The notes below the pieces were generated by a model. It was given only the letters and a program-made list of their open reading frames with translations, was not told where the DNA came from and searched no databases. From Escherichia phage AV117, in the sequence record OR352947.1: a stretch of 64,000 nt of DNA; one strand, given 5' to 3'. Shown one piece after another: positions 4,177 through 30,000 of the stretch. Each line of letters starts with the position of its first letter. Within the stretch, counting starts at the first letter, position 1. The position numbers and the translations under genes were made by a program.

Positions 4177-5192
4177 TGTGTTGCCTCAATATAAAGTTCG
4201 TTGGAATATTTGACCAGCGCTTCTCTGTCTTCGTCTGAGATATCTGGAATCGCGTCAATATATTCTTTAATGATATCTTGAAGTGATTTAATCTCGATTT
4301 CCTGGTCGTCATCAGATTCAACACTGTTATCAACTTTAGAAACCATACGAAGAGAGTGAACTACTTTTTCAAGTTCAGATTCAAACTTAGTCAACTCTGA
4401 ATCAATTTCTGATACTATAACACGTACGGCTAGATTAGTATAATCAGAATAATTGATTTTGCCTTTAAACGGATAAGTGATTCGTCGATGCCATGTTGTT
4501 TCATTAGGAATAAATTCCATACGTTCAACATCGGTGTCAAATACCCAGAATCCTCGAGGGTCGTTTTCATCACCTGCAGTAAGGGTCCATGGTGTCCCAA
4601 TATATTTGACGTTAGCAGCTTCAGAGATTGTGTGGAAGTGGCCGGACCAGACTTGTTTATAGGTCTTTAAGAAATCAGGTTCAAGCCCATGAGACTTCAT
4701 TCCTTTATAGAAATAAAAGCCATTCAGTTCCCAGTGCCCAACACAAAAAGAAGCAGATGAAGTTTTGATATGTTCAAGAATTTCACCAGTATTTTCTTCG
4801 CACATCCAAGGAATTAAATCAATCAAACATCCGTCAAAATCTACTGTAGTAGGCTTATCATATACTTTAACATTAGGATATTTAGCTAAAAGCTCAGTAG
4901 AAGCGTTTGGAGTTAAAGTATTTTTAAAGTGCATATCATGGTTTCCTACAACAGTATGTAGGGTAATACCAGCATCATCAAGCATTTGAACTATTTCACG
5001 TGCGAACTCCATAGTTTTATGCGTGATTGCTTTTCGCACATCAAAAATATCACCGTATTGAATCCATGTAGTAATTCCATTTTTCTTGGAATATTCTATC
5101 GCCTGCTTAATTCCATCCAACTGAATGGATTGAACCCACTCATCATCGGCTTTAACACCTAAATGCCAATCACCTAAATTTAAAATTTTCAT
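4173..5192 (-). CDS. 47: Recombination endonuclease subunit gp47 (Mre11/SbcD-like phosphoesterase)
   Basis: 339 aa; calcineurin-like motifs LGDWHLG, GDIFD, GNHD, GHWE/GHFH. Confidence 0.9.
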   Translation of the reverse strand: MKILNLGDWHLGVKADDEWVQSIQLDGIKQAIEYSKKNGITTWIQYGDIFDVRKAITHKTMEFAREIVQMLDDAGITLHTVVGNHDMHFKNTLTPNASTELLAKYPNVKVYDKPTTVDFDGCLIDLIPWMCEENTGEILEHIKTSSASFCVGHWELNGFYFYKGMKSHGLEPDFLKTYKQVWSGHFHTISEAANVKYIGTPWTLTAGDENDPRGFWVFDTDVERMEFIPNETTWHRRITYPFKGKINYSDYTNLAVRVIVSEIDSELTKFESELEKVVHSLRMVSKVDNSVESDDDQEIEIKSLQDIIKEYIDAIPDISDEDREALVKYSNELYIEATQ

Positions 5193-5235
5193 ATTATTTC
5201 CTCATTAGTTAATTCATTCTATCATCCGTTTATAA

Positions 5236-5264
5236 AGCAAAAAAAGGAACTCCGAAGAGTTCCT
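5236..5264 (-). terminator. Rho-independent terminator (hairpin AGGAACUC-UUCG-GAGUUCCU plus U7)
   Basis: Perfect 8-bp stem with UUCG loop at 5245-5264, followed on the minus strand by TTTTTTTGC. Confidence 0.6.
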
Positions 5265-5439
5265 ATCCACATAGTACACCGTACAGAGGCTCATTTGAAC
5301 TTTTAAATCGAATGGGCTTGTATGTAATAGTTCCTTCTGCTTTAGCTTTATCATGAGACTCTTTAAAACGTCTCATCATTTCTACTTTAGAGGAACGAAT
5401 TTTATTATAATCTATTTCAGAAGTCGGGATGTTCGTCAT
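5263..5439 (-). CDS. Hypothetical small protein (58 aa, below the ORF-track cutoff)
   Basis: Hand translation MTNIPTSEIDYNKIRSSKVEMMRRFKESHDKAKAEGTITYKPIRFKSSNEPLYGVLCG; stop abuts the terminator hairpin. Confidence 0.3.
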   Translation of the reverse strand: MTNIPTSEIDYNKIRSSKVEMMRRFKESHDKAKAEGTITYKPIRFKSSNEPLYGVLCG

Positions 5440-5478
5440 GCATAAGCACCTCTCAGAAAATGCCTAAATCAATTTCTC

Positions 5479-5700
5479 TCATCGTTTCCACCATTTCTTA
5501 ACTTGAAATGAATCAACCCACACGAGTTGTTTTGGGTCTGCCTTTACAATAGGCGGACAAATTTCTGTAATAGAACCGTCGTGATATTCCTTTTCAGAGA
5601 TTTTAACACAAAGAGGACCTCCCAATTTAAGGGTGAATCCTGCGTTCAGATTAAGACGTTTAAACTTTGTTTGAACTAGCGCCATTAATGATGTCCTCAA
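5479..5700 (-). CDS. Hypothetical protein
   Basis: 73-aa ORF; start ambiguous (M1 or M6), overlaps upstream ORF. Confidence 0.4.
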   Translation of the reverse strand: MRTSLMALVQTKFKRLNLNAGFTLKLGGPLCVKISEKEYHDGSITEICPPIVKADPKQLVWVDSFQVKKWWKR

Positions 5701-5983
5701 TAGCCTGACGAGTAGTAACCCACTGGATTTTAATTAACTTGTCATTATATGGTTGTCGTAGAATATCCCGAGATTTCTTAATAGCATATTCGTAAGCTTC
5801 GAAGTTGTTTTGAATTGCTGCTTCTTGAGCATGAGCATAAAGACGGTTTAGTTCAAAACGATTCTTTTTAAGAATCTTTTCGGATTTTTTACGTGCTTCA
5901 GCTTCATTTTTCTTTTGGATTTCTTGTAGCATTTTAGCTACTGCATCTTCTGCTTCTTTATTTTCAATAATCTCGGTAGTCAT
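5660..5983 (-). CDS. Hypothetical protein
   Basis: 107-aa charged, helical ORF. Confidence 0.5.
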   Translation of the reverse strand: MTTEIIENKEAEDAVAKMLQEIQKKNEAEARKKSEKILKKNRFELNRLYAHAQEAAIQNNFEAYEYAIKKSRDILRQPYNDKLIKIQWVTTRQAIEDIINGASSNKV

Positions 5984-5984
5984 A

Positions 5985-6200
5985 TTATCTCATTAAATTA
6001 AAATAAAAACGTCCATCCTCTTCAATACAGAACTCATACTCGACCGGAGTCCCATTTATCGAAAATGACACGTCATGTGGGTTCAAAGGGTCGATGTCAA
6101 AATTAATTTTAAATTCACGACCCAACAGTTTTATCAAATAAGGGATTGCTTCGTCAAAAGGTTCTTCTAAGTAGTTAGAGATGTCAATTGTCATCCTCAT
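5985..6200 (-). CDS. Hypothetical protein
   Basis: ORF-track start 6278 would overlap gp55 by 95 nt; internal ATG at 6200 preferred. Confidence 0.4.
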
Positions 6201-6741
6201 ATAAAAAATCCAAACTAGGCGAATCGCTAACAACTTCCTTCTTTTCAGCCCCAGGAGCTTTATAAGCGGATTCTTCATAATGCGTCATTTTATCGTAGAT
6301 GTCTTGAATAAACGTTTCATCTACCAACGCTACCATATCATCGTCATGACTGTCGTAGACGTTATGAACGAAGTAACTATATTTCTTTGCAACTTCCTTA
6401 CGTTCTTTTTTGATACGTTGGACAAAAGCATTAAAACAAGCTCGAGTTATGTATGCATGTGGGTTATTGTACTTAGTTTCGTCGAAATTATGAAGTCCCT
6501 TAATAGAGGCTTCAATCCCATCTGCAATCATCTCCTGCTTCCAAGACTGGGTATATCCTGAAAAGTTGAAACGTTTGGACAGGCCTTCGGCGATAAGCAT
6601 AATTGCTAAACCGATGGTATCATTCTGACGAATAATTTTGTTTGGGTCTTTATTATTTAAGAGCTCCTTTTTCCACTCGATTATAGCGGCGAGAAGCTCT
6701 TTATTATTCACATAGTTATTTTTAGGTTTTTGTTCAGTCAT
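6184..6741 (-). CDS. 55: Late-transcription sigma factor gp55
   Basis: 185 aa, [24 protein letters not shown]...; length and sequence match T4 gp55; no alpha-gt gene between 47 and 55. Confidence 0.9.
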
Positions 6742-6770
6742 AAGTACCTCTTAGCTCAATTCATAGGTCT

Positions 6771-6806
6771 ATTATATCATAATATTTAGAGACCTATCTT
6801 AAAGCA
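6771..6806 (-). promoter_or_regulatory. Putative middle-type promoter of gene 55 (MotA-box-like TGCTTTA, TATAAT, flanking 8-bp inverted repeat)
   Basis: Minus strand reads cgTGCTTTAagataggtctctaaatattatgaTATAAT; spacing is ambiguous. Confidence 0.35.
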
Positions 6807-6813
6807 CGAGATA

Positions 6814-7083
6814 CTATCGGAGCAAACAATAAGCCTGAAACACTTTTTCCATTAAACGTTTGAACTCATGGATATCGATATAAAGCTCAGTAAGACCGGC
6901 ATTATAAAGAAAATCTAAAAAGTTCTCATGTGTTTCGTTATAGTCGCCTTCGTTTAATTGAGATACATGAGTTTCCCAAAAACCAACACCTTTAACGAAT
7001 GGAAAATACGTGACTTTCATGTATTCGTCAACATAAAATTCGCCCAGCTTTTCTTCAGTTATACTGATTCGAGTTAATTTCAT
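6814..7083 (-). CDS. Hypothetical protein
   Basis: 89-aa ORF. Confidence 0.5.
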   Translation of the reverse strand: MKLTRISITEEKLGEFYVDEYMKVTYFPFVKGVGFWETHVSQLNEGDYNETHENFLDFLYNAGLTELYIDIHEFKRLMEKVFQAYCLLR

Positions 7084-7307
7084 TCTAGTTCCTTTGCTGC
7101 TTCAAGAGCATCATCCAACGAATCAAATTGGTCAACGAAATCGATATTCAACGCATCGTCAGCCGTAGCATATAGCCACCATTGTTTGAATTCATATTCT
7201 AGGATAAATCCAAGCCCTTCAATCTGAGAAAGACCTAGGCTATTTGTACCAACTTCGTAACCAGCTAGACGCAGGTCATTAATCAAAGATTCTGTTAATA
7301 CGCTCAT
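7080..7307 (-). CDS. Hypothetical acidic protein
   Basis: 75-aa ORF, coupled to neighbours. Confidence 0.5.
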   Translation of the reverse strand: MSVLTESLINDLRLAGYEVGTNSLGLSQIEGLGFILEYEFKQWWLYATADDALNIDFVDQFDSLDDALEAAKELE

Positions 7308-7636
7308 TTTACCGCCTTAACAATTTTCAGGTCAACGAATTTTTTCTTACGTTGATTTTTCATACGACGGATAGTCTTTTCAGAGATTTCATGTTTCTGA
7401 TAAGCTTTAGATTCAACACCAAATGCAGCAACGTCAAATTCAGAAAGAATATATTGTACTAGAATTTCACGAATAGAATTACGTCCAATTTTCTGGTCGT
7501 GTTTTTGCATGATTTCATAAAGACGGAATTCCCATGCGTCAAGGACTTGAGGAGTAACAATATTGCCGGATTCCAGAAGAGCAACAACTTTATCGAAAGC
7601 GAAAGAATTAACTACGTTTTTGATTTTAGTAGACAT
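7304..7636 (-). CDS. Hypothetical protein
   Basis: Start moved to ATG at 7636 (MSTKIKNVV...) with SD GAGGAAAAT; ORF-track start lies upstream. Confidence 0.5.
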   Translation of the reverse strand: MSTKIKNVVNSFAFDKVVALLESGNIVTPQVLDAWEFRLYEIMQKHDQKIGRNSIREILVQYILSEFDVAAFGVESKAYQKHEISEKTIRRMKNQRKKKFVDLKIVKAVK

Positions 7637-24833: not shown

Positions 24834-25057
24834 TTAGGTTCACCTTCTTTAACGAAATCCGGGTAAGGGTAAAATCCTGAGTAAAACCCTTCACCTTTAT
24901 GATTGCTACAACCTTTGTTCGAACAGTAACACCAATAATCAAAATCACAAGCCATTTCGTCATTGCATAAAGCAAAAACTACAGGCCATTCGCATTTTTC
25001 GCATTTAGCACCTGTAAGAATTTTTGTTTGACTCATAGCCATGTCACCTTTAAGCAA
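24830..25057 (-). CDS. Hypothetical cysteine-rich protein
   Basis: 75 aa with 10 Cys (CEKCEW...CNDEMACDFDYWCYCSNKGC). Confidence 0.5.
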   Translation of the reverse strand: MLKGDMAMSQTKILTGAKCEKCEWPVVFALCNDEMACDFDYWCYCSNKGCSNHKGEGFYSGFYPYPDFVKEGEPK

Positions 25058-25260
25058 TATTCTTCTATATGTTGTTTACGGCCTTTCTTATCAATAAAGG
25101 TATATTCAACGAATGTTCCGATGTAGTCTTTATCTACATCATGTGGACTATTAATTGGACATTTGGTACGACAAATGCGTTCCCATTGACGAATAATTAC
25201 TGCCTTATTCTTTGGGTCATATGGATGTGGATAATGTATATTCATAATAATGGTTCCCAA
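25033..25260 (-). CDS. Hypothetical protein
   Basis: 75-aa ORF; start may be the internal MNIHYPHPYDP. Confidence 0.45.
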   Translation of the reverse strand: MGTIIMNIHYPHPYDPKNKAVIIRQWERICRTKCPINSPHDVDKDYIGTFVEYTFIDKKGRKQHIEEYCLKVTWL

Positions 25261-25709
25261 TCAACAATCACAATTTCTAGTTTAGTGGAATACGTATCTA
25301 AAATCTCTTCGATGACATCCCAGTTTCCACCACCAATACCTGCACCAATTCTTGGCATATAAATTACAGGCTTTGTTATCTTATTCTTTCCGAATTCATT
25401 TAATTCTATTATACAATTCATTAAAGCAGAGTACTCAAAATTAGGTCCCGGCTCAAACTGTGTATAAAGATTAAAGCAATAAGCTTTATGGGTCTTAAAA
25501 TATTTTTCATAAACCGAATAAGTCCCGAGTTTAGACTCGTCTCCAAATTCGGTTTGAAGTTTATCGGCTTCCAGAATTTTTGGATAAGCCTTTGCTAATT
25601 GTCCTGCCACGCCAGCGCCCATTGTATGAAAACAATTACACCCATGAGCGATATTATTACCTTTAGAAAACAGGGCGACAATATCGCCCTTGATATAGTT
25701 TTTAATCAC
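25242..25709 (-). CDS. Macrodomain protein, TARG1/OARD1-like (putative ADP-ribose hydrolase)
   Basis: Motifs KGDIVALF...AHGCNCFHTMGAGVAG and VIYMPRIGAGIGGGNWDVIEEIL parallel the TARG1 signature; no ATG at the N-terminus, GTG at 25709 with SD AGAGGA proposed. Confidence 0.6.
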   Translation of the reverse strand: MIKNYIKGDIVALFSKGNNIAHGCNCFHTMGAGVAGQLAKAYPKILEADKLQTEFGDESKLGTYSVYEKYFKTHKAYCFNLYTQFEPGPNFEYSALMNCIIELNEFGKNKITKPVIYMPRIGAGIGGGNWDVIEEILDTYSTKLEIVIVDWEPLL

Positions 25710-26049
25710 TTGCTGCAAGTCCTCTATTATAAGAGTCAACTAGACGGTCCACCATAGAATTGCATGCTGCCTTATCTTTAGGTTCCGCCACCGAGCATTC
25801 TAATATTTGCCATTTTTTATAGTATCTTTTAATTAAGGTAGACGCCTTGAACCTACTAGACGCCCCATCTTTTTCTCCGTCTTTATACGCATATAACAAT
25901 TTTTGTGAAAAATCTACTTTACACTCTTGACTTTTACCACAATAATCAGACGCTGTTCTGTTTGTATACTCCGTTACATCAGTATATGTAGTATTAGCAA
26001 GAGCGTTAAATGAAACCAAGCCAACTATTAAAGCCAACATTTTGGTCAT
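25702..26049 (-). CDS. Secreted or periplasmic protein (T4 vs position)
   Basis: 115 aa; signal peptide MTKMLALIVGLVSFNALA; four Cys. Confidence 0.5.
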   Translation of the reverse strand: MTKMLALIVGLVSFNALANTTYTDVTEYTNRTASDYCGKSQECKVDFSQKLLYAYKDGEKDGASSRFKASTLIKRYYKKWQILECSVAEPKDKAACNSMVDRLVDSYNRGLAASD

Positions 26050-26588
26050 TCTTTTATTTCCAGTAGTTTGTTTGATTTAAGGTAATTAGCCTTTTCTAGG
26101 ACTTCAGAAGCATATTTACTTCCAGCACTTGTCTTCCATCCCGCATTATATGAGGATATAGCTTTTCTTATATCCCCGTTATGTATATTTAACCAATAAG
26201 AAAATTCGATATAAGCCCATCTGGCTGAATTAGACCGCTTAGATAGCATTTTCTTAATTTGGGCATCAGACATATTATAACCAAGCTGGTTAATTCTTGC
26301 CCTCATTGTTGGTAGATAATTTTGGAACATTCCATACGCATGGTGACCTTTCTTATCTTTAAGATTAATACCGGCAGATGATTCCTGCCATAGTATTGCG
26401 GCCATTATGTATCCAAGTCCTTTCTTATGCATATTTTCATGCGTTTTAAATTTTCCGTCCTTAGAAAACTGTTCCCCAAACTGATAAGCATAATTCAAGT
26501 TATCGAGTTGGACATTACTAAAAGTATGCTCGGAGCTATGTGCTGATAATGAAAGAGCAAATAGACCAGCGAGTAGTGCTTTTCTCAT
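26046..26588 (-). CDS. Periplasmic soluble lytic transglycosylase-like protein (vs.1 position)
   Basis: Signal peptide MRKALLAGLFALSLSAHS; SLT family-1 motifs AILWQESS, GMFQ, SYNAGW. Confidence 0.6.
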   Translation of the reverse strand: MRKALLAGLFALSLSAHSSEHTFSNVQLDNLNYAYQFGEQFSKDGKFKTHENMHKKGLGYIMAAILWQESSAGINLKDKKGHHAYGMFQNYLPTMRARINQLGYNMSDAQIKKMLSKRSNSARWAYIEFSYWLNIHNGDIRKAISSYNAGWKTSAGSKYASEVLEKANYLKSNKLLEIKE

Positions 26589-27112: not shown

Positions 27113-27411
27113 TACTCTTTGAAAGGAATTAACTTTTTAACTGCTTTAGATACTTCGTCACGAACCTGGTGGAAGTTCTTGAGCTGTTCAAGGCGTTGTT
27201 CGTAATACGCAATCTCATCTTCTTCAAGACAATCGTCAGCGTCTTCTTTCAGATATGCCTTGTACTCATTAAAGAGGGCCCATAGGCGATTCTCAAAGTC
27301 ATCAAGGCTTTGAATTTTCTTGTGCTTCGGAACAAGGCCAAAAGGATTGCTTTCAGTTATGCGTCGAGATGCTTCATAATGAGTTCCAAAGCCTGATAGG
27401 ATTTGAGCCAT
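27112..27411 (-). CDS. Hypothetical protein (vs.3 position)
   Basis: Start at ATG 27411 (MAQILSGFG...), overlapping the upstream stop (TAATG). Confidence 0.5.
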
Positions 27412-27656
27412 TAGTATTTTTCCTCTGGTTGAAATACCGCACGACAAGCCCACATACTAGCTTCCTTTAGGCGTTCTTTAGCACAGTTCAATTGGGACAA
27501 AGCAGTCAGAGCTTCAGGAGTATTTGCTGATAATGCTTCTTCTGCCAGGGCGTCTAGAATAAGTCCTAAACGAACTTCGGCATCTTTAATAGCGTTCACT
27601 TTACCGATTTTATCATCGGTATGCGGTTTGTAGCCTTTGATGTCTTCAATCGACAT
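27411..27656 (-). CDS. Hypothetical protein
   Basis: Start at internal ATG 27656 ([12 protein letters not shown]...). Confidence 0.45.
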
Positions 27657-29083: not shown

Positions 29084-29356
29084 ATTATTTCTCTTAAGGT
29101 TTGGGCCATTCCGTGGCACATGAATTGTCCATTTCTGTATTTACCCATTACCGCACTTGGGCTCGACCTTATTACAGGTTGGCGGGAATCCCTCATAGAA
29201 TCATGAGGTCCAGGTTGTTCCCATGTTATTTGAATGTAAATATTTTTGCCGTAATACTTATACTAGTGTGGCTTCATTAAAATTTTTTCATCGAGTCATT
29301 TCACCTCTCCAAGTAATTATGAATATACTATCACAATTTTAGGAGAAAGTAAACTG

Positions 29357-29659
29357 TTATTTACCTTTAATTACTTTAGCTGCTTCGATAGCCGCTTGCT
29401 GAAGGTCATCCATAGACATACCGAATTTAGAAGCAAAGTTATCAATTTTCCTTTCGACAGCATTCAAAGGCTTGGCCTGTTTACCTTCATTAGCGCCAGG
29501 AAGAGCGAGAATACGCTCTTTGTCAATATAAAGGCTTACAAGTTTCTTACGGTCTTTATCGGACAAATCATGAAATGAATGGGCCTTTTTATTTATAGCG
29601 GCTTCTAATTTACCTGCACTCACTCGCGCTTCAGTAATAAATTCTTGATATGTTTTCAT
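29357..29659 (-). CDS. Internal protein (IPIII-like) with capsid targeting sequence
   Basis: N-terminus MKTYQEFITE matches the T4 internal-protein CTS consensus MKTYQEFIAE. Confidence 0.65.
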   Translation of the reverse strand: MKTYQEFITEARVSAGKLEAAINKKAHSFHDLSDKDRKKLVSLYIDKERILALPGANEGKQAKPLNAVERKIDNFASKFGMSMDDLQQAAIEAAKVIKGK

Positions 29660-29685
29660 TTTTGTTCCTATTGGTTTAATTTATG

Positions 29686-30000
29686 TTATTCTTTAGGGAA
29701 GTTTTTAGAGTATGCATCATAAAGTTTATTACCGATGCGACGGAAGACTTTAGCTGCAAAACGGTTTTCAGGGTTTTTAATCATGATTTGCATCATGTAA
29801 GTTCCTGCATCCGAAAGAGCTTCTTCATAGTACCCATTAATTTCTTTAAGGGTTCTACGTTTACCACCAGGTCCATCAACAGTAATTTTCCATTTACCTG
29901 TAGAAGTGCGGCTCGGTGGTTCAACTTGTTCAATCCAAATATAACCGCCTTCAACGCGTTGGTTGGCGGATTCTGCAATAAATTCTTTATACGTTTTCAT
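29686..30000 (-). CDS. Internal protein (IPII-like) with capsid targeting sequence
   Basis: N-terminus MKTYKEFIAE; own early promoter at 30031-30060. Confidence 0.65.
   Translation of the reverse strand: MKTYKEFIAESANQRVEGGYIWIEQVEPPSRTSTGKWKITVDGPGGKRRTLKEINGYYEEALSDAGTYMMQIMIKNPENRFAAKVFRRIGNKLYDAYSKNFPKE

What the first reader, a model, noticed from the sequence alone, without database searches (positions are those of the whole stretch)
25242..25709. Phage-encoded TARG1/OARD1-like macrodomain, a candidate ADP-ribose eraser
The ORF carries the paired motifs KGDIVALF-x8-AHGCNCFHTMGAGVAG and VIYMPRIGAGIGGGNWDVIEEIL, which parallel the TARG1 signature (KGDLFACP...AHCIS.DCRMGAGIA and MPRIGCGLDRLQWENV..IEE). 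TARG1 and DarG-type macrodomains remove ADP-ribose from proteins and from thymidine-ADP-ribosylated DNA. In a phage this could reverse DarT-type DNA ADP-ribosylation defence, or tune the phage's own ADP-ribosyltransferases. The gene has no ATG start; a GTG with a good SD is proposed.
Basis: partly seen in the sequence, partly recalled or inferred. Interest (0 to 1): 0.7.

Follow-up and report, generated by a model that had tools for sequence, protein, structure and literature searches.

The report
Known phage anti-DarT macrodomain gene (tk.4)

Summary

The window is a Mosigvirus-like T-even phage. The gene is the syntenic orthologue (84% aa identity) of T4 tk.4. A November 2025 preprint renamed tk.4 adfM because its deletion sensitises T4 to DarTG2.

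One correction. The protein is TARG1-like in fold and ADP-ribose-binding loops only. TARG1's catalytic Lys84 and Asp125, and DarG's Lys80, are replaced by an invariant Gln84 and by Gly126. Gln at this position is the SCO6735 solution, and SCO6735 cleaves thymidine-linked ADP-ribose and dies with Q85A. The phage ADPR-1''-phosphate phosphatase Adpp (38% identical) has the same signature. This phage has no NARP1 genes, so a published Adpp-type role does not apply.

The most likely function is removal of DarT2's ADP-ribose from thymidine in phage ssDNA. This is inferred: no Tk.4-type protein has been assayed. Novelty: already known.

The parts
25242..25709 (-). Macrodomain gene, orthologue of T4 tk.4 (adfM). 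155 codons plus TGA, GTG start.
   Evidence: ORF list and sequence. Pfam Macro 28.3 bits. 83.9% aa identity to T4 Tk.4 over the full length. Same position between vs and tk.3 as in T4. AF2 pLDDT 95.4.
25707..25709 (-). GTG start codon
   Evidence: Aligns base for base with T4's annotated ATG, which is preceded by an in-frame TAG. Conserved in at least 118 records.
25720..25725 (-). Shine-Dalgarno-like AGAGGA, with 11 nt between GAGG and the GTG
   Evidence: Sequence. T4 has GAGGA at the same distance. Function as a ribosome-binding site is inferred.
25683..25688 (-). Gly8-Asp9 of the KGD motif. By analogy with TARG1 KGD, this is the adenine-contacting end of strand beta-1.
   Evidence: G8 is nearly invariant in alignment A1 and aligned to TARG1 KGDL. 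The adenine contact is inferred from general knowledge of macrodomains.
25611..25646 (-). His22-x-x-Asn25-Cys26 ... Met30-Gly31-Ala32-Gly33: active-site His/Asn and the first phosphate-binding GxG loop
   Evidence: H22, C26 and G33 are invariant and N25, M30 and G31 are at least 90% conserved in 59 homologues. N25 aligns with the DarG/PhiKZ Asn, whose mutation lowers PhiKZ AdfM activity. H22 matches Poa1p H23 and SCO6735 H24 by position; this equivalence is inferred.
25458..25472 (-). Asn80-Leu-Tyr82-Thr83-Gln84 motif. Gln84 occupies the position of the catalytic Lys of TARG1 (K84) and DarG (K80).
   Evidence: N80, Y82 and Q84 are invariant. hhalign to TARG1 and Mtb DarG. MAFFT column is Q in Tk.4/Adpp and K in TARG1/DarG/PhiKZ gp104. 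SCO6735 Gln85 is stated to be equivalent to those lysines and is essential (PMC9411070).
25320..25355 (-). Pro119-x-Ile121-Gly122-x-Gly124-x-Gly126-x-Gly128-x-Trp130: second phosphate-binding loop. Gly126 sits where TARG1 has catalytic Asp125.
   Evidence: P119, I121, G122 and G124 are invariant; G128 and W130 are at least 90% conserved. Alignment to TARG1 MPRIGCGLDRLQW.
25702..26049 (-). Upstream gene vs (valyl-tRNA synthetase modifier). Its TAA overlaps the macro gene by 8 nt.
   Evidence: Annotation of near-identical and T4 records; coordinates. No Pfam hit. This is context only, not part of the mechanism.
25033..25245 (-). Downstream gene tk.3 (DUF7202). Its ATG overlaps the macro gene's TGA (ATGA).
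   Evidence: The overlaps at both ends suggest co-transcription and translational coupling; this is inferred.
25672..25690 (-). 8-bp GC-rich hairpin (AGGGCGAT-ATT-GTCGCCCT) followed by GTTTTCT, within codons 7-13 of the gene
   Evidence: Terminator-like hit. Identical in T4, Sf24 and IME281. A different-sequence hairpin with a paired change sits at the same place in Vequintavirus FFH2. z-scores are only -1.1 to -2.1. Significance unresolved.

Best explanation
The gene is the Mosigvirus orthologue of T4 tk.4 (adfM). It encodes a stand-alone 17-kDa macrodomain ADP-ribosyl hydrolase that the phage makes to neutralise the host DarTG2 toxin-antitoxin defence.

DarT2 attaches ADP-ribose to thymidine in single-stranded phage DNA and blocks replication. 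This enzyme most likely binds the ADP-ribose through its two glycine-rich loops and the KGD end, then hydrolyses the ribose-C1''-thymine bond, releasing ADP-ribose and intact DNA.

The chemistry is probably not the lysine mechanism of TARG1 and DarG. It is more likely the lysine-independent, Gln-positioned, water-mediated mechanism proposed for SCO6735, because the catalytic position holds an invariant Gln84.

Shown here: the ORF and its start, the macrodomain fold and class, orthology and synteny with T4 tk.4, Gln84 and Gly126 at the TARG1 dyad positions, and the absence of NARP1. Shown by others for the T4 orthologue: it is needed for DarTG2 resistance (genetics only). Inferred: that this copy does the same, and that it acts by enzymatic removal of thymidine-linked ADP-ribose.
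For: Identity and orthology:
- Pfam Macro is above its cut-off.
- The AF2 model has pLDDT 95.4, with TARG1, Poa1p, BT1257 and DarG as best structural matches.
- The protein is 83.9% identical to T4 Tk.4 over 155 aa, with the same neighbours vs and tk.3.
- Window versus T4 shows 48 synonymous against 26 nonsynonymous codon differences, indicating purifying selection.

Function of the T4 orthologue:
- T4 tk.4 was the only significant hit of a transposon screen on DarTG2, and a clean knock-out sensitised T4 (10.1101/2025.11.20.689424).
- T4 lacking adfA and adfN stays DarTG2-resistant, which predicted a further factor (PMC11825919).
- T5, which is DarTG2-sensitive, has no homologue: best E = 0.11 against 5.7e-67 for the window gene.

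Feasibility of the chemistry:
- Gln84 is invariant in 59 homologues and aligns to TARG1 K84 and DarG K80.
- SCO6735 has Gln85 at that position, cleaves thymidine-linked ADP-ribose on DNA at least as well as DarG and TARG1, rescues cells from DarT, and is dead as Q85A or Q85E (PMC9411070).
- The family profile hits SCO6735 (5e3b) at E = 2.5e-15 and aligns BT1257 as N-x-x-x-Q.
- A different phage macrodomain, PhiKZ gp104, removes DarT2's ADP-ribose from an oligonucleotide in vitro, showing that this counter-defence strategy exists (PMC13309987).
Against: - No Tk.4-type protein has been assayed on ADP-ribosylated DNA. The T4 evidence is a non-peer-reviewed preprint with genetics and a structural superposition only.
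- The closest biochemically characterised relative is not a DNA enzyme. It is Adpp, an ADPR-1''-phosphate phosphatase. An Adpp orthologue in Vibrio phage Athena is 38% identical and keeps every invariant residue.
- Tk.4 scores no better against the curated DarG model (31.9 bits) than Adpp does (33.9). Both are far below PhiKZ gp104 (137.8) and TARG1 (56.9).
- By spacing from the His, the SCO6735 lysine that positions DNA (K34) would correspond to Ala32 here. An explicit alignment to SCO6735 could not be obtained.
- This phage's copy is 16% diverged from T4's and has not been tested.
Confidence: 0.7

Rival explanations
1. Its main activity is that of an ADPR-1''-phosphate phosphatase (Adpp/Poa1p-like). 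It would convert ADPR-1''-P, produced by RES-domain NADases such as the aRES defence, into ADP-ribose. The DarTG2 phenotype would then be secondary or due to promiscuity.
Against: The published benefit of Adpp depends on NARP1 using the ADP-ribose it produces. This phage has no Adps or Namat: tblastn of both against the window and the whole 99%-identical genome gives only E of 0.2 or higher. The family occurs in about 2,800 phage records, whereas the preprint found the macro protein in only 15% of its 859 NARP1 pathways. Most members therefore act outside NARP1. The only phenotype reported for the T4 orthologue is on DarTG2. The two activities are not mutually exclusive.
Confidence: 0.15
2. 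It protects mainly without catalysis, either by binding and inhibiting DarT2 or by shielding ADP-ribosylated sites, as catalytically dead SCO6735, DarG and TARG1 can inhibit DarT in vitro.
For: SCO6735 Q85A, DarG K80A and TARG1 K84A all reduce DarT activity in vitro, with SCO6735 the strongest (PMC9411070). No catalytic mutant of T4 Tk.4 has been reported.
Against: The active-site residues (H22, N25, D49, N80, Y82, Q84 and both Gly loops) are invariant or nearly so across phages of many hosts. That pattern fits an enzyme better than a binder of one toxin. The protein lacks the C-terminal DarT-binding domain of DarG: it is 155 aa and matches only positions 4-146 of the 338-position DarG model.
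Confidence: 0.07
3. It reverses or tunes ADP-ribosylation written by the phage's own transferases (Alt, ModA/ModB), or acts on O-acetyl-ADP-ribose, as some database labels suggest ('O-acetyl-ADP-ribose deacetylase, regulator of RNase III').
For: The near-identical genome encodes alt, modB and a ModB-like gene. JGI labels several homologues as OAADPr deacetylase. TARG1-class enzymes are known to deacylate OAADPr (review PMC8120803).
Confidence: 0.05

Closest known systems
T4 Tk.4 = AdfM (anti-DarT factor Macrodomain; bioRxiv 10.1101/2025.11.20.689424)
   Same: Orthologue. 83.9% aa identity over all 155 residues, the same position between vs and tk.3, the same overlap with neighbours, and the same 5' hairpin.
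   Different: GTG instead of ATG start. 16% sequence divergence. A different genus (Mosigvirus rather than Tequatrovirus). This copy has not been tested.
SCO6735 of Streptomyces coelicolor (PDB 5e3b), the Gln-type ALC1-like macrodomain
   Same: Same structural class. Gln at the catalytic-Lys position, no Asp125 equivalent, and a His near the active site. SCO6735 cleaves thymidine-linked ADP-ribose and rescues cells from DarT.
   Different: Distant in sequence (phmmer E = 7e-5). It is bacterial and DNA-damage-inducible, with a longer mobile loop and DNA-positioning lysines that appear not to be conserved here. The residue-level alignment could not be printed.
Adpp, the NARP1-associated ADPR-1''-P phosphatase of Vibrio phage Gary and relatives (bioRxiv 10.64898/2026.01.28.702374)
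   Same: Same phage macro family (PHROG 335). 38% identity to the Athena orthologue, with an identical set of invariant residues including N-x-Y-x-Q.
   Different: Adpp sits inside an Adps-macro-Namat operon and acts on a small molecule. This gene sits between vs and tk.3 in a phage with no NARP1. Adpp has a 5-8 residue insertion after the Gln.
Human TARG1/OARD1
   Different: Catalytic Lys84 is replaced by Gln84 and Asp125 by Gly126. Only 23-25% identity.
DarG antitoxin (Mtb 5m3i, T. aquaticus 5m31)
   Different: Catalytic Lys80 is replaced by Gln. 31.9 bits against an equivalog cut-off of 250. No C-terminal DarT-binding domain and no adjacent darT.
PhiKZ gp104, also named AdfM (Cell Rep 2026, PMC13309987)
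   Same: Same proposed job: a phage macrodomain that undoes DarT2. For gp104 this is shown in vitro.
   Different: A different macro lineage. gp104 keeps the DarG-type FPTK lysine and scores 137.8 bits on the DarG model, against 31.9 here. It is 19% identical. The shared name hides two independent recruitments.
Yeast Poa1p and Bacteroides BT1257
   Different: Poa1p has Ser rather than Gln at or next to that position, in the pairwise alignment only, and works in tRNA-splicing by-product clearance. BT1257 has no known function.

Membership tests
Macro domain (Pfam PF01661) | Profile score above Pfam's gathering threshold | tested here: met
   28.3 bits against a cut-off of 22, E = 1.9e-6, covering profile positions 2-117 of 118.
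Macro domain (Pfam PF01661) | Three-layer alpha/beta/alpha macro fold with two Gly-rich phosphate-binding loops | tested here: met
ALC1-like / TARG1-like macrodomain class (TARG1, DarG, SCO6735, Poa1p, BT1257) | Closest structural and profile neighbours are members of this class rather than MacroD, PARG or viral Mac1 types | tested here: met
TARG1/OARD1 proper | Catalytic Lys84 | tested here: not met
   Gln84 is aligned to K84 by hhalign and MAFFT, and Gln is invariant in 59 homologues.
TARG1/OARD1 proper | Catalytic Asp125 in the second loop (GCGLD) | tested here: not met
   Gly126 is aligned to D125 (GAGIG against GCGLD).
DarG antitoxin (NCBIfam NF048014 equivalog) | Score above the curated equivalog cut-off | tested here: not met
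   31.9 bits against a cut-off of 250.
DarG antitoxin | Catalytic Lys80 (FPTK motif) | tested here: not met
   NLYTQ is aligned to FPTK.
DarG antitoxin | C-terminal DarT-binding domain and an adjacent darT gene | tested here: not met
   The protein is 155 aa and matches only positions 4-146 of the 338-position model. Its neighbours are vs and tk.3.
T4 Tk.4/AdfM orthologous group | High full-length identity and conserved synteny (vs - tk.4 - tk.3 - ... - tk) | tested here: met
   83.9% identity over residues 1-155. Same gene order and overlaps.
T4 Tk.4/AdfM orthologous group | Required for plating on DarTG2-expressing hosts | not testable with these tools
   Reported for T4 only. Needs a deletion in this phage.
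Gln-type ALC1-like hydrolases (SCO6735 type) | Gln at the position of the TARG1/DarG catalytic Lys | tested here: met
   Q84 is equivalent to K84/K80. The SCO6735 paper states Gln85 is equivalent to K84/K80. The equivalence to SCO6735 is by transitivity; profile hit to 5e3b at E = 2.5e-15.
Gln-type ALC1-like hydrolases (SCO6735 type) | Hydrolysis of thymidine-linked ADP-ribose on ssDNA | not testable with these tools
   Needs an in vitro assay on a DarT2-modified oligonucleotide.
Adpp (NARP1-AP ADPR-1''-P phosphatase) | Homology and shared active-site signature | tested here: met
   38% identity, E = 1e-24, to the Athena operon protein. All invariants are shared.
Adpp (NARP1-AP ADPR-1''-P phosphatase) | Encoded within or next to a NARP1 operon (Adps + Namat) | tested here: not met
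   No Adps or Namat homologue in the window or in the complete 99%-identical genome (E of 0.2 or higher).

The most novel reading that the evidence does not exclude
The Tk.4/AdfM proteins of T-even phages and the Adpp phosphatases of NARP1 operons are one enzyme family with one Gln-type active site. That site cleaves whatever is attached to C1'' of ADP-ribose, whether thymine in DNA or phosphate. If so, a single 17-kDa phage protein could blunt two unrelated ADP-ribose/NAD-based defences, DarTG2 and RES-type NADases. T4-type and PhiKZ-type 'AdfM' would then be two independent recruitments of different macrodomain lineages (Gln-type and Lys-type) to the same counter-defence.
Probability: 0.3. 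Interest if true: 0.55.

Novelty: already known. Interest (0 to 1): 0.3.

Why it matters
DNA ADP-ribosylation by DarT is a recently recognised antiviral mechanism, and phage erasers show how it is evaded. For this gene the central point is already published for T4 (tk.4 is needed against DarTG2), so the window adds only another orthologue.

Three smaller points may be useful.

1. Many GenBank records truncate or omit this gene because of its GTG start. Surveys of phage counter-defence genes will therefore under-count it.
2. The T-even enzyme lacks the lysine that defines TARG1 and DarG catalysis. It shares its active site with SCO6735 and with the phage ADPR-1''-P phosphatase Adpp. That gives a concrete, cheap experiment on mechanism and substrate range.
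3. The name AdfM is now attached to two non-orthologous macrodomains, which will cause confusion in annotation.

Tried and rejected
- I tried twice to obtain a printed residue-level alignment to SCO6735 (PDB 5e3b), with the family profile and through a DarG query. It never ranked in the five alignments shown. The Gln84-Gln85 equivalence therefore rests on transitivity through TARG1 and DarG.
- Net charge and pI as a proxy for DNA binding were uninformative. The proven DNA enzyme PhiKZ gp104 is as acidic (pI 5.05) as Tk.4 (pI 5.6).
- The genomic context of two distant homologues (P0112, P0118) showed phage-like neighbourhoods with no DarT, Adps or Namat.
- The CmdTAC paper mentions macrodomains only in its references.
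- The original DarTG defence paper was not in the searchable library. The DarTG2 host-range statements are taken from PMC11825919 and the HIDEN-SEQ preprint.
- The longer TTG-initiated ORF (25739, 165 aa) was rejected. T4 has an in-frame stop directly before its ATG at the homologous position, and the extra codons lie inside vs.
- The shorter ATG-initiated CDS annotated in OR062945.1 (126 aa) was rejected. It would remove strands beta-1 and beta-2 and the invariant H22, N25 and C26.
- A second macro-like gene next door was rejected. Vs.1 is labelled 'leucine aminopeptidase, subunit E, domain 1' in OR062945.1, but it gives only a weak SLT hit and no macro signal.
- The 5' hairpin as a significant RNA element was not established (z -1.1 to -2.1).

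Full report
**Observation**

The ORF is real, but it lies on the minus strand: 25709 (GTG) down to 25242 (TGA), 155 codons. The only slip is the spacer between KGDIVALF and AHGCNC, which is 6 residues (SKGNNI), not 8.

The reading frame opens after a TAG at 25742-25740. It contains a TTG (25739), the GTG (25709) and, as its first ATG, codon 30. The GTG is the right start for four reasons:
- In T4 the annotated tk.4 ATG sits at exactly the homologous base and is immediately preceded by an in-frame TAG.
- A GAGG-type Shine-Dalgarno lies 11 nt upstream in both phages.
- The junction is 99-100% identical in at least 118 phage records.
- Gene callers give 155-aa products for the closest database clusters.

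The closest complete genome (OR062945.1, 99.2% identical) annotates only a 126-aa product from the internal ATG. Some other records show no CDS over the gene's 5' end. That truncation would delete two beta-strands and three invariant residues, so it is an annotation artefact caused by the GTG.

**What it is**

The protein passes Pfam's Macro threshold (28.3 bits against 22) and matches PHROG 335, labelled 'phosphatase', at E = 4.7e-67. An AlphaFold2 model built on 59 homologues is very confident (pLDDT 95.4, pTM 0.91).
- Foldseek ranks TARG1 first (E = 3.5e-10) and gives Poa1p the best TM-score (0.80).

**Whose gene it is**

The window is a Mosigvirus-like T-even phage. It corresponds to about 46-111 kb of Escherichia phage 308Ecol101PP, in reverse orientation. 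The gene lies between vs and tk.3, overlapping both (8 nt with vs, ATGA with tk.3). That is exactly where T4 has tk.4. The protein is 83.9% identical to T4 Tk.4 over its whole length. Codon differences from T4 are 48 synonymous against 26 nonsynonymous, which indicates purifying selection. Homologues occur in about 2,800 phage records across many genera.

**What is already known**

- A November 2025 preprint (HIDEN-SEQ, 10.1101/2025.11.20.689424) screened a T4 transposon library on a DarTG2 host. tk.4 was the single significant hit, and a clean deletion sensitised T4. The authors renamed the gene adfM. They only infer that it removes ADP-ribose from DNA, from its structural similarity to DarG.
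- This fits the earlier observation that T4 lacking adfA and adfN is still DarTG2-resistant (PMC11825919).
- As a small consistency check, T5 is used as the DarTG2-sensitive control in both papers. It has no homologue detectable with the family profile (best E = 0.11, against 5.7e-67 for the window gene).

**Where the TARG1 analogy fails**

I verified my TARG1 and M. tuberculosis DarG sequences as identical to PDB entries 2lgr and 5m3i. I then aligned the 59-member family profile to each (hhalign probabilities 98.3% and 98.2%).
- The catalytic Lys of TARG1 (K84) and DarG (K80) aligns with Gln84 of this protein.
- TARG1's Asp125 aligns with Gly126.
- Gln84 is invariant in all 59 homologues, within an N80-x-Y82-T83-Q84 motif.
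- An independent MAFFT alignment gives the same column. It holds Q in the window protein, T4 Tk.4 and four NARP1-linked phage macros. It holds K in TARG1, both DarGs and PhiKZ gp104.

The review PMC8120803 confirms K84/D125 and K80 as the accepted catalytic residues.

**A precedent for the Gln version**

SCO6735 of Streptomyces coelicolor belongs to the same class and lacks the TARG1 dyad. Its Gln85 is stated, from a structure-based alignment that also includes BT1257, to be equivalent to K84/K80. SCO6735 cleaves thymidine-linked ADP-ribose from DNA more efficiently than DarG or TARG1 and rescues E. coli and S. coelicolor from DarT. It is inactive as Q85A or Q85E. The authors propose a water-mediated mechanism in which Gln positions the distal ribose (PMC9411070).

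The Tk.4 family profile hits SCO6735 at E = 2.5e-15 and aligns BT1257 as N-M-I-G-Q. Lack of the lysine is therefore no obstacle to anti-DarT2 chemistry. The best mechanistic model for Tk.4 is SCO6735, not TARG1 or DarG. I could not get the SCO6735 alignment printed, so the residue equivalence is by transitivity.

**A rival from the same family**

A January 2026 preprint (10.64898/2026.01.28.702374) shows that a Poa1p-like phage macro protein, Adpp of Vibrio phage Gary, dephosphorylates ADPR-1''-phosphate. Adpp is encoded between Adps and Namat. Its activity lets the NARP1 pathway rebuild NAD+ after attack by the aRES defence.
- Vibrio phage Athena has the same three-gene arrangement. Its macro protein is 38% identical to the window protein (E = 1e-24) and keeps every invariant residue.
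- The NARP1-linked macros listed in that paper's Table S1 all carry N-x-[YH]-x-Q.
- Reciprocal tblastn from either protein recovers nearly the same set of phage records (2,799 against 2,708).
- Against NCBI's curated DarG model, Tk.4 (31.9 and 30.8 bits) and Adpp (33.9) are equally distant. TARG1 scores 56.9 and PhiKZ gp104 scores 137.8.

Tk.4 and Adpp are thus one family with two reported activities. The published benefit of Adpp needs NARP1, and this phage has none. Adps and Namat find nothing (E of 0.2 or higher) in the window or in the complete near-identical genome. The immediate neighbours carry no ADP-ribose-related domains. I therefore keep DNA de-ADP-ribosylation as the main reading and phosphatase activity as a possible second activity.

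**Two different 'AdfM' proteins**

PhiKZ gp104 was independently named AdfM and was shown in vitro to remove DarT2's ADP-ribose from an oligonucleotide (PMC13309987). Translating the published construct shows that it keeps the DarG-type FPTK lysine. It is 19% identical to the window protein, and hhalign aligns it only partially, from residue 23 (95.9%). The two AdfMs are different macrodomain lineages doing, or presumed to do, the same job.

**Verdict**

The gene is the known T4 tk.4/adfM orthologue, so novelty is 'already known' and interest is low to moderate.

What remains open is biochemical: whether the Gln-type site cleaves thymidine-ADP-ribose, ADPR-1''-phosphate, or both. My confidence is:
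- about 0.99 that this is the Tk.4 orthologue and a macrodomain;
- about 0.8 that it confers DarTG2 resistance;
- about 0.65-0.7 that it does so by enzymatic removal of thymidine-linked ADP-ribose.

**Side observations**

- An 8-bp GC-rich hairpin lies in codons 7-13 and is followed by a T-rich tract. It is nucleotide-identical in Mosigvirus, T4, Sf24 and a Dhakavirus. It uses GC-ending codons in AT-rich genomes. In a Vequintavirus orthologue it is replaced by a different hairpin with a paired change (GGC to GGA matched by GCC to TCC). It is absent in three other T-even genera, and its z-scores are only -1.1 to -2.1. It remains unexplained.
- Two small genes at 29357-30000 begin MKTYQEFI/MKTYKEFI and fall in a segment that does not align to the closest genome. 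From general knowledge this N-terminus resembles the capsid-targeting sequence of T4 internal proteins. I did not follow this up.

Noticed in passing
window 25672-25690 (minus strand), inside the macro gene; also L002 ~1519-1537, L008, L009, L013: An 8-bp GC-rich hairpin (AGGGCGAT-ATT-GTCGCCCT) plus a T-rich tail lies 19 nt after the start codon. It is identical in T4, Sf24 and Dhakavirus IME281 even though those proteins are 57-84% identical. In Vequintavirus FFH2 (also a GTG start) a different hairpin sits at the same spot with a compensatory pair (GGC to GGA with GCC to TCC). It is lost in Karam-, Jiaoda- and Roskildevirus. In the window's predicted fold the flanks also pair the AGAGGAC Shine-Dalgarno region with GUUUUCU. 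z-scores are modest (-1.1 to -2.1). It could be an attenuator, a translation-control element, or a by-product of coding G-D-I-V-A-L.
   Followed up: partly
window 25242-25709; OR062945.1 85217-85597 (L001 3243-3623): Because of the GTG start, the closest GenBank genome annotates a truncated 126-aa macro protein from the internal ATG. Several related records show no CDS over the 5' end of the gene (e.g. KT184309.1, PP434429.1, MK047717.1). RefSeq-style records call the full 155 aa as 'phosphatase'.
   Followed up: yes
literature: T4 Tk.4 vs PhiKZ gp104: The name AdfM was given independently to two non-orthologous macrodomains. T4 Tk.4 is Gln-type (31 bits on the DarG model). PhiKZ gp104 is Lys-type and DarG-like (138 bits). 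PHROG 335 lumps both together with the Adpp phosphatases.
   Followed up: yes
window 26046-26588 (minus), Vs.1: This gene is labelled 'leucine aminopeptidase, subunit E, domain 1' in OR062945.1, which is the CATH name of the macro-like fold. The protein has what looks by eye like an N-terminal signal peptide (not tested) and only a sub-threshold SLT (lytic transglycosylase) hit (18.3 bits against 21.3), with no macro signal. The label looks misplaced by one gene.
   Followed up: partly
window 29357-29659 and 29686-30000 (minus); window 29183-29977 does not align to OR062945.1: Two small ORFs start MKTYQEFITEA / MKTYKEFIAES. From general knowledge this resembles the capsid-targeting sequence of T4 internal proteins. 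They lie in a segment that differs from the closest genome, i.e. a polymorphic internal-protein locus. A further non-matching segment at 27123-27528 holds a 113-aa ORF with no Pfam hit.
   Followed up: no
L018-L020 (metagenome contigs carrying homologue P0118), ~5001-7623: A 246-aa homologue of the macro protein lies two genes upstream of a cREC_REC-domain protein (PF20274). The Aravind-group survey (PMC9503650) predicts that domain to process ADP-ribose derivatives.
   Followed up: no
window ~42.3 kb and ~31.8 kb (by correspondence with OR062945.1 68047-68502 and 79252-79707): The window also carries the cyclic phosphodiesterase gene (the 57B/Acb1-type anti-CBASS gene in T4) and a NUDIX hydrolase gene. 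alt, the modB-type genes and the 30.3/adfN region lie outside the window.
   Followed up: no
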